64,000 bases of DNA, taken from positions 35,712,001 to 35,776,000 of the forward strand of contig NC_043010.1 of assembly GCF_006345805.1 (NCBI RefSeq), given 5' to 3'. Of the stretch, positions 11,955 through 63,147 are shown piece after piece. How positions within the stretch are numbered: position 1 is the stretch's first letter; each line of letters opens with the position of its first letter. Both the position numbers and the translations under genes were made by a program. Below the pieces are notes generated by a model. The model searched no databases and had not been told where the DNA came from. It saw only the letters and a program-made list of their open reading frames with translations. The stretch is from Octopus sinensis. Its lineage: Eukaryota.

Positions 11955-12385
11955 GGCGTCGTAGTGGCTGTGTGGTAAGTAGTTTGCTTACCAACTACAT
12001 GGTTCTGGGTTCAGTATCACTGCGTTGCAACTTGGGCAAGTGTCTTCTACTATAGTCTCGGGCTGACCAAAGCCTTGTGAGTGGATTTGGTAGACGGAAA
12101 CTGAAAGAAGGCCGTCGTATATGTATATGTGTATATATATATATATATGTACTTGTGTGTATGTGTTTGTGTGTATGTGTTTGTTTCCCTCAAATCGCTT
12201 GACAACCGATGCTGATGTGTTTGTTGCATACCCCGTAACTTAATGGTTCGGCAAAAGAGACCGATAGAATAAGTATTAGGCTTACAAAGAATAAGTGCTG
12301 GGGTCGATTTGCTCGACTAAAGGCGGTGCTCCAGCATGGCCACAGTCAAATGACTGAAACAAGTAAAAGAGAGTAACGAGTAAGA
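11955..12385 (+). mobile_element. Full-length tRNA-derived SINE (major family) with an internal TA/TG microsatellite
   Basis: A box gtggctgtgtggtaag, B box gggttcagt, body ccttgtgagtggatttggtagacggaaactgaaagaag, 3' part gatagaataagta...gctccagcatggccacagtcaaatgactgaaacaagtaaaagag. Confidence 0.88.
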
Positions 12386-17173: not shown

Positions 17174-17266
17174 TATTTCATTCTACACGTGTTTCGAAAG
17201 GCACAATTTACCAAATTCCGATTGAATAATGAGACCATATTGTGTCTTTCTCTTCAGGAAGAAATA
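17174..17266 (-). ncRNA. Type I hammerhead ribozyme motif (left palindrome arm)
   Basis: Reverse complement of the motif at 17434-17525. Confidence 0.78.
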
Positions 17267-17433
17267 GGAAATCCGTTGGAAAAAACAAAAACAGAACAGA
17301 GGCGGAGCAAAACAAATCGAACTAGGCTCCTAAGAGCCCATGGCCAAACTGTTTGGCCATGGGCTCTTAGGAGCCTAGTTCGATTTGTTTTGCTCCGCCT
17401 CTGTTCTGTTTTTGTTTTTTCCAACGGATTTCC

Positions 17434-17525
17434 TATTTCTTCCTGAAGAGAAAGACACAATATGGTCTCATTATTCAATCGGAATTGGTAAATTGTGCCT
17501 TTCGAAACACGTGTAGAATGAAATA
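17434..17525 (+). ncRNA. Type I hammerhead ribozyme motif (right palindrome arm)
   Basis: Stem I tatttcttc/gaatgaaata, core CTGAAGA at 17443-17449, stem II gaaagacacaa/ttgtgcctttc, then GAAAC-ACGT-GTA. Predicted cleavage after 17515. Confidence 0.8.
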
Positions 17526-26164: not shown

Positions 26165-26562
26165 CTTCTTTTATTCTTTCAGTCATTTGACTGTGGCCAT
26201 GCTGGGGCACCGCCTTAACATTTTTAGTCGAATGAATCGACCCCAATACTTACATTTTTTAAGCCTGGTACTTATTCTATCAGTCTCTTTTGTTGAACTA
26301 CTGCAGGGACACAAACACACCAACACCGGTTGTCAAGCGATGGTTGGGGAACAAACACATGCACAAAGACACACACACACACACATACATACGTACATAT
26401 ATATGATGGGCTTCTTTCAGTTTCCGTCTGCCAATTACACTCACAAGGCTTTGGTCAGCCTGAAGCTATAGTGGAAGACACTTGCCCAAGGTGCCATGCA
26501 GTGGGACTGAACCCAGAATCATGTGGTTGGGAAGCAAGCTTCTTACCACACAGCTATGCCTA
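26165..26562 (-). mobile_element. tRNA-derived SINE (major family)
   Basis: Reverse complement of the family consensus. Confidence 0.82.
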
Positions 26563-38075: not shown

Positions 38076-38551
38076 AAAAGTATTAAAAGACAATGGAAGG
38101 CTCCAAAGTCATGCATCACCTACATCAAAACTAAAATATGCTGATATAGTGCATAATTTTGGTAATTTTAGTAACAATTCAAACAGATAAGATGCATTAA
38201 GAATTTCAATTTTAGTGTTTTTAACCATAATATTTTATTGCTTTTACATCTATTAATTAAATTTTACCTGCCCATAAAAGTCAAATTTATTTGGCAAGAT
38301 CACCAAAAGTTACATAACTATAAACCAGTGGTATATAAAGCATCCTCTGACAAAATTTCAAATCTGTATGTAAAAAATTTACAAAGTTACAAGAAAATAT
38401 AGTGGACACCTCTTGAAACTGAATCATTCAAAATAACGTAAACATTTGACAGATGAATATGGACACTAAAGATGTCTTTAGGTGTTTTTTTTTACGCACA
38501 CACATAACATGGCCTCACTCTGTTGGGACTACACATGTGTTACTTTGGCAT

Positions 38552-38925
38552 CATCACATGGTTCTGGGTTCAGTCCCACTGCATGGCACATTGGGTGAGT
38601 GTCTTCTACTATAGCCTCGGGCCAACCAAAGCCTTGTGAGTGGATTTGGTAGACGGAAACTGAAAGAAGCCTGTCGTATACATGTATATGTAAATATATA
38701 TATATATATATGTGTGTGTGTTTGTGTGTTTGTCCTCCCCCCCCCCAACATCGCTTGACAACAGATGCTGGTGTATTTACGTGTCCGTAACTTAGCGGTT
38801 CTGCAAAAGAGACTGATAGAATAAGTACTAGGCTTACAAAGAATAAGTCCTGGGGTCGATTTGCTCGACTAAAGGCGGTGCTTCAGCATGGCCACAGTCA
38901 AATGACTGAAAAAAGTAAAAGAGTA
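38552..38925 (+). mobile_element. tRNA-derived SINE (major family, 5'-clipped)
   Basis: Matches 11955-12385. Confidence 0.85.
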
Positions 38926-42828: not shown

Positions 42829-42874
<46 letters not shown>

Positions 42875-42949
42875 CGAGAAGCTTTATGAAAATAAACAAA
42901 AGACGAAGGCAGGTGGAGTACAAACAAACAATTGTATTGTATGAGTGTA

Positions 42950-43221
42950 TGTGTAGGAGTGGGTGTGTGGTAAGTAGCTTGCTTACCAACCACATGGTTC
43001 CGGGTTCAGTCCCACTGCGTGGTACCTTGGGCAAGTGTCTTCTACTGTAGCCTCGGGCTGACTAAAGCTTTGTGAGTGGATTTGGTAGGCGGAAACTGAA
43101 AGAAGCTTGTCGCATATATGTATATATATGCCTGTGTGTGTATATGTGTGTGTGTCTGTTTTTGTTTCCCCAACATCGCTTGACAACCGATGCTAGTGTG
43201 TATGTGTCCCCATAACTTAGC

Positions 43222-47284: not shown

Positions 47285-47707
47285 TATATTAGAGTAGTAA
47301 AGTTCCTTCCTGAGTCCTATACACTCATAGGGTCGATTTCCTGGTTTTCATAGCGTATGTATTCCTCAGCTGAATGGGACGCCCATCTGTAGTAACAGGG
47401 TTACTAATTCTTGCCAGCTGAGTGGAGTGGAGCAACATGAAATGAAGTGTTTTGCTCAAGAATGCAACGTATCACCTGGTCCAGGAATTGAAACCACAAT
47501 CTTACGATTACAAGTCCAACACACTAACCACTAAGTAAACCACCCGAAACTCTCAGACCTTGAGTCACTCTGTTACTTCTGCTGACCACTGAACTTTACA
47601 TGTTTTTTCCATTCTCCCTCTGTTTATTTTCTCTTATTCCTTTCTGTTGAAAACTTTTTCATATCTCCTGAGCGTCAAGCTAATACACTTGCTTGTTGTT
47701 CATACAA

Positions 47708-47709
47708 CT

Positions 47710-47796
<87 letters not shown>

Positions 47797-48682: not shown

Positions 48683-48760
<78 letters not shown>

Positions 48761-48774
48761 ACACATCTAAGCGT

Positions 48775-49120
48775 ACGAGTGGCTGTGTGGTTCCAGGTTC
48801 AGTCCCACTGCGTGGCACCTTGGGCAAGTGTCTTCTACTATAGCCTTGAGCCGACCAAAGCCTTGTGAGTGGATTTGGTAGACAGAAACTGAAAGAAGCC
48901 TGTCGTCTATATATATATGTATACATATTTGTATGTCTGTGTTTGTCACCCCACACTATCGCTTGACATCCCCATGACCTAGTGGCTTGGCCAAAGAGAC
49001 CGATAGAATAAGTACTAGGTGTGTGTGATTACAAAGAATAAGTCCTGGGGTCGATTTCTTCGACTAAAGGTAGTGCTCCAGCAAGGCTGCAATCAAATGA
49101 CTGAAACAAATAAAAGATTA
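48775..49120 (+). mobile_element. tRNA-derived SINE (major family, internal deletions)
   Basis: Matches the family consensus. Confidence 0.82.
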
Positions 49121-52592: not shown

Positions 52593-53261
52593 ATTAGTAT
52601 TATACACTTCTGTAACCATCGTAAAGATGCTTTAAAAACTTAATTCAAAACTTTTAAACTGTCATATACATTACATATTTATACTGATACATATTTACAT
52701 ATATTTTTTATATATATTTATATTTTTAATACAATAATTATTTTACCACATATATATCTTTCTGAAGAATTCTAATATTGATTTCCTAATATTAATATAT
52801 TATAATATATAATATATATATATATATATATATAATATATAAAGATATTATTGTTTATCAGTTGCTTAGCATGTGGAAGAAAACCCATAAAGGTATAAAT
52901 TACCAAGTAATAATTAAGGGTACTAACAAGCAGTACCGGCATGCTGACATAGCAGTCATAATGACCAAACCACAAGATTTTACTTAAACACAAAGGTGTT
53001 GCTCCAGCACGGGCTCAGTCCAGTGACTGAAACATGTAAATGATAAAAGATGCTTTTCAAAAATTTCTGTTTGTTTCACAATTTCTTCTTTTACCTTTAC
53101 TTTTAACATTATAGTTTTCACATTCTATTTTTAACTTTTCTTTCTATAATTTTAAAATTTCAGCTTCATCTTAATTTTTACTTTCAACTTTTGTTTTATT
53201 ATCTAGTATTTAATTTTTCAATTATATATATATATATCAGTTGCCATGATAGATCGTTAGC

Positions 53262-53675
53262 CACTACACAGATTTTTTCCTCATCTTGTTTTTTCTGTGT
53301 CCCTTTCTGTAGAAGAGCATAGGCTCGAAACGTAAAAGACTTTTTCTATTCCTGAGCGTTATACTAATATATCTGTTTATTTTGTACACCACTTGTCTTC
53401 GTCTTTGTTTTTTTTTGTAAACTCTCCCTATATATATATCATGTTGATTCACTAGCCTCTGCACGCATATTTTTTTTCTCTCCTTCTTTCTGTGTTTTTT
53501 CTCTGTGTATCTTTCTGTTGAAGAGCATAGGCTCGAAACGTTAAAGACTTGTTTTATTTATATTTCCTGAGTGCCATACTAATACAATTGTTTGTTTGTA
53601 TTCCACCTGCCTTCGTCTTTTGTTTATTTCCGTAAACCTGCCTTCATCTTTTGTCTATTTTCATAAAGCTTCCCG

Positions 53676-53677
<2 letters not shown>
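53262..53677 (+). mobile_element. Tandem pair of short non-coding repeat units, each carrying a minimal hammerhead-like motif
   Basis: Two related units share ctttctgtWgaagagcataggctcgaaacgtWaaagact...cctgag...atactaat...ccac...cttcgtcttt...gtaaac and end in (TA)n. Confidence 0.75.
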
Positions 53678-53725
<48 letters not shown>

Positions 53726-55339: not shown

Positions 55340-56235
55340 TACGTGGTCTGATCAATAAGTATCCGGACTGTTGCCATAATACCGAAGCTGAAGCACGTAG
55401 AGTCAAGCTGCTTGGCACAGATTGACCTTGAACTCTGTTATGCATGTGCACTAAGTGTTAACGTTCTAGCTCACTTCCGCTGTTTACAGCAGTGCTTGGA
55501 AGGAAGGTGTGTAGCGTGTGATCGTCGCATTGACCATGACAGAGAAAATTAGCAGAGAATCTGCATCAAATTTTGCCAAAAGCTTGGCGATACCTGCTCA
55601 GAGGCTTACGCAAGGTTTTCAAACAGTTTTCATCGTTCTCGCCGCAATCAAGATCTTATGCAACAGAAACCCGAGTGTGTTTTTGGCCAGCTGAAAGTAG
55701 TTTTGGCGCAAACTTGGCAGACGCGCGTCTCATACCCAAATCTTTCAGTGATAATGGACTGAACTGAACCGTAACTAATCTGCACATCCCATGATAGCTC
55801 ACAGATGGGGATTCGACGATTTCGCTTCACAGATGCATGCATATTTGCGATGTTTTACTCAGTTCTGCTGGTCGCGGTTCTTTCAGAACGTTCGTCAATA
55901 TGGACGCTTTTTCGGCCATCTTGGAAACATCTGAAACACTCGTACATTTGTGTGCGGCTCATACACTCCTCTCCACACACTTTCTGCAACTTTGCGTTGG
56001 CCTCTGAGTAGGTATCGCCATGACAACTTTCTCTGTCACTGTCAATGCGACGATAACGCGTTACACACGTTCCTTCCAAGCACTGCTGTAAACTGTGAAA
56101 GTGAACTAAAACGTTAAAACTTAGTGCACATGCACAGCAGAGTTCTAGGTCAATGAGTGCCAAGCGGTTTTACTCTGCGGGCTTTAGCATCGTTGCTATG
56201 GCAACAGTCTGGATACTCATTGATCAGGCCTAGTA
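55340..56235. mobile_element. Mariner-derived fold-back element made of two 5' ends in opposite orientation
   Basis: Ends tacgtggtctgatcaataagtatccggactgttgccata and tatggcaacagtctggatactcattgatcaggcctagta. Arms of about 250 bp both reach the transposase start (QRICIKFCQKLGDTCSEAYAK on +; GDTYSEANAKLQKVCGEECMSRTQMYECF on -). Confidence 0.88.
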
Positions 56236-59391: not shown

Positions 59392-59548
59392 TGTATTTTT
59401 TCTCTCCTTACTTTTTCTGTGTCCCTTTCTGTAAAAGAGCGTAGGCTCGAAACGTAAAAGACTTTTTCTATTCCTGAGCGTTATACTAATACATCTGCTT
59501 GTTTTGTACACCACCTGTCTTCGTCTTTTGTTTTTTTTCGTAAACTCT

Positions 59549-59552
<4 letters not shown>
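59392..59552 (+). mobile_element. Solo copy of the short hammerhead-like repeat unit
   Basis: ccctttctgtaaaagagcgtaggctcgaaacgtaaaagactttttctattcctgagcgttatactaat...; very close to the first unit at about 53270-53430. Confidence 0.8.
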
Positions 59553-62403: not shown

Positions 62404-62768
62404 CCATTAAAAAAATTGGGTTATCTCCCCTCTAAAAAGTTGAGTTTATGTGGTGACAAGAGATTGGATTAAAAGGGTTAAATCCTTTTGCTTCAATACT
62501 TCAACGCATTGTTGACATTTGGCCTCCTCAATAGGAATGGTATGATTTGTTATAAAAATGTTATTAGATTCCATAAGATGTTTAATTTTTTCAGTTTTCA
62601 TGGTTGTTAATTTTTTCAATTTTGTATGATTTGTTATAAAAATATGATCAGATTCAATAAGATGTTTAATCTTTTCACTTTTCATGTTTATTAATTTTTT
62701 CATTTTTTTTGTTTTATTGAGGGTTAAACACTTTTTTTAGTTGGAGGAGATAACCCAATTTTTAATGG
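62404..62768. mobile_element. MITE-like element with about 25-bp TIRs and an internal tandem duplication of about 84 bp
   Basis: Ends ccattaaaaaaattgggttatctcc and ggagataacccaatttttaatgg; gtatgatttgttataaaaat...taagatgtttaat occurs twice. Confidence 0.7.
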
Positions 62769-62904: not shown

Positions 62905-63070
62905 AATAGGCGAAGGAATGGGTGTGTGGTAAGTAGCTTGCTTACCAACCACATGGTTCCGGGTTCAGTCCCACTGCGTGGCACCTTGGGCAAGTGTCTT
63001 CTACTATAGCTTCGGGCCGACCAAAGCCTTGTGAGTGGATTTGGTAGACGGAAACTGAAAGAAGCCCGTC

Positions 63071-63147
<77 letters not shown>

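What the first reader, a model, noticed from the sequence alone, without database searches (positions are those of the whole stretch)
53262..53677. Retrozyme-like repeat family with a non-canonical minimal hammerhead core, in tandem 208 nt apart
Seen in sequence: cttt-CTGTAGAA-GAGC-atag-GCTC-GAAAC-GTA-aaag (53303-53338) and cttt-CTGTTGAA-GAGC-atag-GCTC-GAAAC-GTT-aaag (53511-53546). Stem I (cttt/aaag), stem II (GAGC/GCTC) and GAAAC-GUH are in type I hammerhead order. Stem III has no loop, only a self-complementary ACGU. The core reads CUGUWGAA, i.e. U at the normally conserved A6 plus one extra A. The two units have diverged elsewhere but keep this motif almost unchanged. A third copy (59425-59460) has a G>A change in the core, one at about 47600-47710 has lost the motif, and a partial copy lies at about 42872-42945(-). 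Established: minimal hammerheads of Penelope-like elements and metazoan retrozymes lack a stable stem III and cleave as dimers. Inference: this is a non-coding, (TA)n-associated mobile RNA family using an atypical catalytic core. The tandem pair could cleave after 53334 and 53542 and release a 208-nt, possibly circularising, monomer.
Basis: partly seen in the sequence, partly recalled or inferred. Interest (0 to 1): 0.85.

Follow-up and report, generated by a model that had tools for sequence, protein, structure and literature searches.

The report
Penelope element with U6-variant hammerhead
The two repeats are cut-short tail ends of a Penelope-like jumping gene, not a small circular RNA, but the whole family of over 16,000 copies carries a self-cutting RNA motif with a U where this motif normally has an A, and it likely still cuts weakly.

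Summary
The motifs are real and at the stated coordinates. They are not a retrozyme. Both units are 5'-truncated 3' ends (pseudo-LTRs) of an autonomous Penelope-like element with a single ORF (RT, CX4CxxC linker, GIY-YIG). They come from two subfamilies, are 79% alike, and most likely inserted separately into one (TA)n tract, so the 208-nt spacing is incidental. The extra A and the loopless ACGU stem III are the published consensus of Penelope minimal hammerheads. The unusual part is A6U. It is the family state (16,283 exact motifs; 75 of 75 ungapped copies sampled without using the motif), sits in both pLTRs of long-ORF elements, and has a canonical-A6 sister family (4,231). Across U6 subfamilies only N7 and N17, the free hammerhead positions, vary. 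Truncated copies start in excess exactly at the predicted cleavage site (11-12 versus 7 over four control sites), an indirect sign of cleavage in vivo. Against: published A6 mutants are weak, U6 favours an inactive hairpin, and the excess is not significant in the older subfamily. Nothing was assayed. Verdict: a new core variant of a known element-ribozyme pair.

The parts
53238..53429 (+). Unit 1: 5'-truncated 3' end (pLTR) of the Penelope-like element, older subfamily A (N7=A, N17=A)
   Evidence: 92-95% to dispersed copies; same 3' end before (TA)n in those copies
53303..53338 (+). Minimal hammerhead motif 1: stem I 53303-06 with 53335-38, C3 53307, U6 53310, G8 53312, stem II 53315-26, G12 53327, ACGU 53330-33, predicted cut after 53334
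   Evidence: consensus in PMC4209133 supplement
53430..53439 (+). (AT)5 spacer: target tract between the two insertions
53440..53676 (+). Unit 2: 5'-truncated 3' end, young subfamily B (N7=U, N17=U), with a 31-nt internal duplication shared with other B copies
   Evidence: 98-100% to dispersed copies
53511..53546 (+). Minimal hammerhead motif 2: C3 53515, U6 53518, predicted cut after 53542
53677..53708 (+). (TA)16 target tract at the fixed 3' end
59396..59552 (+). Third copy, subfamily A, G8>A at 59434 (breaks the C3-G8 pair; presumably dead)
47600..47710 (+). Old copy with stem II to stem I deleted after CTGTTGAA (47644)
42872..42945 (-). Short B-type copy truncated downstream of the motif

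Best explanation
The two units are 5'-truncated 3' ends of an endonuclease-bearing Penelope-like retrotransposon, likely inserted one after the other into the same TA tract, and each carries the family's minimal hammerhead with a lineage-fixed A6U core that likely still self-cleaves weakly. Shown: identity of the element, position of the motif in both pLTRs, fixation of U6, hammerhead-like pattern of conservation, excess of copies starting at the scissile bond. Inferred: the element is transcribed from a partial tandem; its protein nicks (TA)n and starts reverse transcription at a fixed site about 95-135 nt downstream of the motif; most templates are uncut there, so cDNA runs through the motif and stops at scattered AT-rich points. 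U6 would pair with A15.1 (and G5 with C15.2), holding a lone motif in an inactive hairpin. A minority of RNAs would refold, as a dimer through the palindromic ACGU and probably helped by the element's protein, and cut after N17; reverse transcriptase running off such a cut end would give the copies that begin at position 1.1.
For: Element: all 20 long-ORF loci fetched have the U6 motif downstream of the ORF, and 7 of 20 have a second motif 4.27-4.51 kb upstream (one of these with C6); RVT_1 E 1e-7 above cut-off, GIY-YIG E 0.003-0.008 below cut-off; 1,199 homologues. Fixation: 16,283 U6 versus 4,231 A6 motifs with the same stem II; U6 in 75 of 75 ungapped copies among 100 picked by a downstream 23-mer; U6 in copies whose ORF pieces are only 63-88% identical to the young element. 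Selection: N7 = A15, C15, G11, T34; N17 = A47, T26, C2, G0; 2 of 36 motif columns variable versus 35 of 87 flank columns, Fisher p 7e-5; stem I pair 4 is C-G in U6 and G-C in the A6 sister. Cleavage trace, counted by hand: in young N17=A subfamilies 13 of 62 TA-flanked junctions start at 1.1, 11-12 after removing copies of the N17=U type, versus 7 over four single-A control sites (p about 1e-4) and 5-7 at the TpA one base upstream that has better microhomology; in B/B' 13 versus 5 and 4 at upstream and downstream TpA controls in the same interval (p 0.012). The 20 fetched 1.1-junction loci have unrelated flanks. Precedent: the anole Poseidon hammerhead is protein-assisted, dispensable for insertion in vitro, and RT starts downstream of it (PMC11167929).
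Against: A natural A6C hammerhead cleaves at <0.1/min (PMC3088659); in a mutagenesis scan all CUGA-turn mutants but the C3/G8 swap had low activity (PMC9901934). Predicted G5-C15.2 pairing is 0.96 in U6/U7 and 0.77 in U6/A7 copies versus 0.12 or less in natural A6 copies, and the window pair does not fold into the dimer. The older A subfamily shows no significant 1.1 excess (5 versus 18 over six sites, p 0.22), and pooling the whole A-run, which allows for slippage, gives p 0.056 (young) and 0.44 (old) (computed before the clean-up). An RT pause at this spot would leave the same trace. Stem covariation inside the U6 lineage is scant: 30 motifs genome-wide changed at both 10.2 and 11.2, only 8 of the 18 family members among them still pair, and G-C is also the likeliest chance double transition. 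Flank variability is inflated by T-tract alignment noise. The canonical-sister control has only 16 loci (7 at 1.1-1.3, 2 exactly at 1.1).
Confidence: 0.62

Rival explanations
1. Same element, but A6U killed catalysis and the motif is kept as a hairpin (binding or folding site for the element's protein, or a pLTR promoter element); the junction excess is an RT pause or slippage.
For: U6 makes a stable rod fold in the youngest subfamily; published A6 mutants are weak; hammerhead cutting is not needed for insertion in vitro and canonical hammerheads are absent from the successful Naiad clade; run-level tests are not significant.
Against: C3 (0.91) and U16.1 (0.97) stay conserved though unpaired in the rod; N17 takes A, U, C but not G; loop-facing N7 takes all four bases; the junction peak follows position 1.1 whether N17 is A or U.
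Confidence: 0.29
2. Neutral relic: a dead ribozyme hitch-hiking in a successful element.
For: A6U would be expected to cripple the core.
Against: 2 of 36 motif columns vary versus 35 of 87 flank columns, over subfamilies whose ORFs differ by up to about 35%.
Confidence: 0.05
3. One reading: a non-coding retrozyme whose tandem releases a 208-nt circle.
For: The two motifs have compatible stems, so a read-through transcript could in principle form a mixed dimer; one near-identical 228-nt tandem pair was seen in the sample (L248); a 2026 preprint derives retrozymes from pLTRs.
Against: Units belong to different subfamilies of different age; the family is coding and 5'-truncated; 97 of 100 sampled copies have no same-strand neighbour in the fetched span.
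Confidence: 0.04

Closest known systems
Minimal hammerheads in pLTRs of metazoan Penelope-like elements (Cervera and de la Pena 2014, PMC4209133)
   Same: U-rich leader, 4-bp helix I, CUG.NGA plus extra H, G10.1-C11.1, GAAA, palindromic ACGU with no loop III, NUH, location in both pLTRs, mostly solo truncated copies.
   Different: U at position 6. All 44 alignment rows visible in the part of Fig. S3 read have A6; the core variant named in the text read is U3-A8.
Neptune/Nematis-type EN+ Penelope-like elements (Craig et al. 2021, PMC8557442)
   Same: Single RT + C-terminal GIY-YIG ORF, CX2-5CxxC linker (here CX4CxxC), partial tandems, 5' truncation, microsatellite targets.
   Different: Non-canonical core, which a 'cuganga' descriptor would miss; clade not fixed by a tree here.
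Poseidon PAc of Anolis (Frangieh et al. 2024, PMC11167929)
   Same: Hammerhead upstream of an internal RT start site; uncut RNA is the main template.
   Different: PAc is Poseidon-clade and its ORF starts in stem II; no RNA-seq ends at its cut site were found, whereas here the genome holds copies starting at it.
Non-LTR retrozymes of animals (PMC7229834; preprint 10.64898/2026.07.22.740005)
   Same: Type I hammerhead, unit of about 200 nt, kinship with pLTRs.
   Different: Those are non-coding tandem arrays, mostly with canonical hammerheads, expressed as circles; this is a dispersed, truncated, coding element.
Natural A6C hammerhead of phage Bcep176 (Perreault et al. 2011, PMC3088659)
   Same: Natural change at position 6 with the rest of the core intact; low but detectable activity.
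   Different: A single phage instance and C; here U, fixed in a lineage of more than 16,000 copies.

Membership tests
EN+ Penelope-like element | Single ORF with RT and C-terminal GIY-YIG | tested here: met
   Open frames of 714-1009 aa in 18 of 20 chosen loci; RVT_1 above cut-off, GIY-YIG matched below cut-off; not in the window itself
EN+ Penelope-like element | Partial tandem forming pseudo-LTRs | tested here: met
   7 of 20 loci with the repeat on both sides, 4.27-4.51 kb apart
EN+ Penelope-like element | 5' truncation, fixed 3' end, microsatellite target | tested here: met
   5' ends from +40 to beyond -690 of C3 in 100 copies; 3' ends at (TA)n
Neptune/Nematis clades | CX2-5CxxC linker between RT and EN | tested here: met
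   CSRPRCRTC; definition from PMC8557442
Neptune/Nematis clades | RT phylogeny separating Neptune from Nematis | not tested
   No named reference set was held
PLE minimal hammerhead | Helix I, helix II with G10.1-C11.1, extra base after A9, palindromic 15.2-16.2, NUH | tested here: met
PLE minimal hammerhead | Core CUGANGA with A6 | tested here: not met
   U6 in 75 of 75; hence filed as a variant
PLE minimal hammerhead | Stem covariation | tested here: inconclusive
   3 of 9 pairs change on both sides in a hand-picked set of 34, mostly between lineages; weak inside U6
PLE minimal hammerhead | Self-cleavage after N17 (as dimer or protein-assisted) | not testable with these tools
   Only the indirect junction excess
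Non-LTR retrozyme | Tandem arrays of like units of 150-450 bp | tested here: not met
   Units 79% alike; 3 of 100 copies with a neighbour
Non-LTR retrozyme | Non-coding, non-autonomous | tested here: not met
   Family is the 3' end of a coding element
Non-LTR retrozyme | Expressed as small circular RNA | not testable with these tools
   Only contigs, no raw RNA reads offered

The most novel reading that the evidence does not exclude
A Penelope lineage has run for a long time, and is still young and multiplying, on a hammerhead whose U-turn is CUGU instead of CUGA: a tuned-down, switchable ribozyme held off by a U6-A15.1 hairpin and switched on as a dimer or by the element's protein. The copies that begin at the scissile bond are a genomic fossil record of Penelope hammerhead cleavage in the germ line.
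Probability: 0.5. Interest if true: 0.72.

Novelty: new variant of a known kind. Interest (0 to 1): 0.52.

Why it matters
A6 is treated as invariant and is written into the descriptors used to call hammerheads present or absent in retroelements, so lineages like this one are invisible to them: here the U6 motif outnumbers the A6 motif with the same stem II about four to one. The role of Penelope hammerheads in vivo is open (weak in vitro, dispensable for insertion in one system, no RNA-seq ends found). The A6 and U6 sister families give a natural matched pair for assays, and counting 5' junctions at position 1.1 is a cheap genome-only test of cleavage that can be run on any Penelope family.

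Tried and rejected
Rfam: no hammerhead hit in the window or on a canonical sister copy; uninformative. Sequencing runs: no RNA holder on record and contigs only. Laying four runs (coded organisms A-D) listed no A at position 6 at the 5% level and no 53542-to-53335 back-joint among the joints shown (15 not shown), but contigs cannot show ends or circles, and the 85% likeness filter may exclude the A6 sister; not used as evidence. Metagenome scan for U6 motifs: 94 loci, mostly chance hits in GC-rich DNA; one animal-like family of 19 loci beside a Penelope endonuclease. Rejected as a second fixed U6 lineage because its flanking copies carry A6 (10 A6 copies in the flanks), in two loci within the same inverted insertion. 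Tandem duplication of one unit: rejected by subfamily identity. Decayed canonical copies: rejected, A6 with the GUAG loop is 2 of the first 100 A6 matches. TpA nicking or microhomology alone as cause of the 1.1 peak: disfavoured because the peak stays at 1.1 when the TpA shifts by one base. Lunse et al. (RNA Biol 14:1499, small hammerhead variants of Penelope elements) is not held and supplement file 1 of PMC4209133 could not be searched; either could mention A6U. Earlier scan findings: nothing for this sequence or genome; the word look-up gave unrelated cases.

Full report
Observation. The motifs are present as described. The genome is 2.72 Gb in 13,516 contigs; its size and repeat content recall an octopus, which is from memory and untested. 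Unit 1 (53238-53429) and unit 2 (53440-53676) are separated by (AT)5 and followed by (TA)16. They are 78.9% identical over 142 nt. Unit 1's best dispersed matches are 92-95% and unit 2's are 98-100%. The simplest reading is that a young copy inserted into the TA tail of an older one. A similar mixed pair 205 nt apart occurs in L028.

What the repeat is. Copies share a fixed 3' end before (TA)n and have ragged 5' ends. Longer copies run upstream into a reading frame with a cysteine linker and GIY-YIG-type motifs. That frame has at least 150 matches at 92-100% identity in the genome. I fetched 20 loci, 19 chosen for long open frames plus one tandem locus. All 20 have the U6 motif downstream of the ORF, 18 have frames of 714-1009 aa, and 7 have a second motif 4.27-4.51 kb upstream inside a repeated segment, the partial tandem typical of Penelope-like elements. 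Pfam gives RVT_1 (E 1e-7) and GIY-YIG (E 0.003-0.008, below its cut-off); 1,199 homologues were found, the few named ones from marine and freshwater animals. The CX4CxxC linker points to the Neptune or Nematis clades (PMC8557442, passages). In 100 copies picked by a 23-mer downstream of the motif (first 100 of 21,383 matches, all on C1), 5' ends run from +40 to beyond -690 relative to C3, 84 of them within 200 nt, and 3 have a same-strand neighbour in the span fetched. This is not a retrozyme as defined in PMC7229834 (passages) or the 2026 preprint (part 1 of 5).

The core. The published consensus of metazoan Penelope hammerheads is CUGANGAH, helix II, GAAAN, palindrome, NUH (PMC4209133: text parts 1-3 of 4; supplement file 2 part 2). 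The extra A and the loopless ACGU are therefore ordinary. A6U is not: all 44 rows read have A6. Here the U6 pattern has 16,283 exact matches against 4,231 for A6 with the same stem II. The A6 matches are mostly a sister family with a 3-nt loop II, stem I GUUU/AAAC and homologous downstream sequence. Of the 100 sampled copies, 75 have an ungapped motif, 10 a gapped or clipped one and 15 none; position 6 is U in 75 of 75, N7 is A 15, C 15, G 11, U 34, and N17 is A 47, U 26, C 2, G 0. With one vote per cluster (85 copies, 40 clusters), 2 of 36 motif columns fall below 80% majority, namely N7 and N17, against 35 of 87 flank columns. U6 is found in copies whose ORF pieces are 63-88% identical to the young element, part of which is decay after insertion. 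So the motif stayed under selection after A6U, and it varies where hammerheads are free to vary. Caveats: copies are related, flank alignment is noisy, and covariation inside the lineage is weak; the shuffle-beating score comes from a hand-picked set and mostly from one change between lineages.

Does it cut? Published evidence says position 6 changes are costly: natural A6C <0.1/min (PMC3088659, section 8), and CUGA-turn mutants were low in a type III scan (PMC9901934, passages). Folding natural copies shows that U6 opens a competing helix, G5-C15.2 with U6-A15.1 (pair probability 0.96 for 67 U6/U7 copies, 0.77 for 35 U6/A7, 0.33-0.40 for the others, at most 0.12 for 34 A6 copies). The main A6 sister has its own, differently registered rod in the example printed. 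The window pair does not form the dimer in a plain fold.

A genomic test. If some template RNAs are cut after N17, reverse transcription from the fixed downstream start would run off at position 1.1, and copies starting there should be in excess. I listed copies whose 5' end abuts a TA run and counted junctions by hand. For N17=U and related copies (first 100 of 629 rows, 52 loci on C1 to C5:53.8 Mb) 13 start at the cut, which is also a TpA, against 5 at the loop II TpA and 4 at a downstream TpA in the same interval (p 0.012). For young N17=A subfamilies the TpA lies one base upstream of the cut, so microhomology and cleavage predict different peaks. In the complete list (70 rows, 62 loci) 13 start at 1.1, 5 at 1.2, 4 at 1.3, 5-7 at the TpA, 9 at the loop II TpA and 7 over four single-A control sites. 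Fetching 40 junction loci showed unrelated flanks and no upstream element sequence, and that one or two of the 1.1 loci and two of the 1.2 loci are N17=U type copies; 11-12 versus 7 remains (p 1.6e-4 to 5e-5). Against this: in the older A subfamily (first 100 of 143 rows) starts are 5, 10 and 5 at 1.1-1.3, with 1.1 alone not significant (p 0.22); pooled over the whole A-run the excess is p 0.056 and 0.44; the canonical sister gave only 16 loci; control sites were chosen after seeing the lists; an RT pause would look the same. Such copies are a very small share of the family, so most templates are uncut at this site.

Mechanism and comparison. This fits the one Penelope element studied with purified protein: RT starts internally downstream of the hammerhead, the ribozyme cuts only with protein, mutants insert normally, and no RNA-seq ends were found at the cut (PMC11167929, parts 1-2 of 4). 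I put about 0.97 on the Penelope identity, 0.62 on the full model with weak cleavage, 0.29 on a dead but selected hairpin. It works like a Penelope minimal hammerhead; it fails the A6 feature and is filed as a variant.

Novelty. Searches of the held library found no report of an A6U core or of truncation junctions at a Penelope cleavage site. The paper most likely to list variants (Lunse et al.; seen only as a reference) is not held, so the claim is limited to what could be searched. U6 motifs seen in other animals' DNA look like sporadic mutants of A6 families.

Noticed in passing
L061-L090 (G000:C1): Canonical-A6 sister family: 23 of 30 copies begin at a shared motif 60-77 nt upstream of C3 and none showed the element's ORF directly upstream; possibly a short non-autonomous derivative or a transcription start.
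   Followed up: partly
L373, L379, L387, L391, around position 1500: Another repeat family with CTGATGAT about 35 nt upstream of the matched pattern and GAAACGTG after it: a possible canonical hammerhead with a long helix II.
   Followed up: no
L376, L390, L397, L372: Old divergent U6 copies with G-C at 10.2-11.2, other loop II sequences and N17=C or U; L376 also has a compensated stem I pair.
   Followed up: partly
L276 and 18 related metagenome loci: Animal-like Penelope family with stem II GGGC/GCUC, inverted 5' duplications and mixed A6/U6 cores beside a GIY-YIG C-terminus.
   Followed up: partly
L310/L323, L314, L319: Single well-formed minimal hammerheads with U6 and 5-6 bp stem I in other low-GC metagenome contigs.
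   Followed up: no
L400: Three successive starts at position 1.1 separated by TA runs at one 5' junction, suggesting repeated template jumps.
   Followed up: no
window 17266-17434: Near-perfect 169-nt inverted repeat, MITE-like.
   Followed up: no
window 11955-12184, 38514-38743, 42950-43179, 48743-48972, 62909-63138: Dispersed SINE-like family of about 230 nt, with an inverted copy near 26306-26562.
   Followed up: no
window 62540-62707 and 55340-56235: 84-nt tandem duplication; 211-nt inverted arms 474 nt apart.
   Followed up: no
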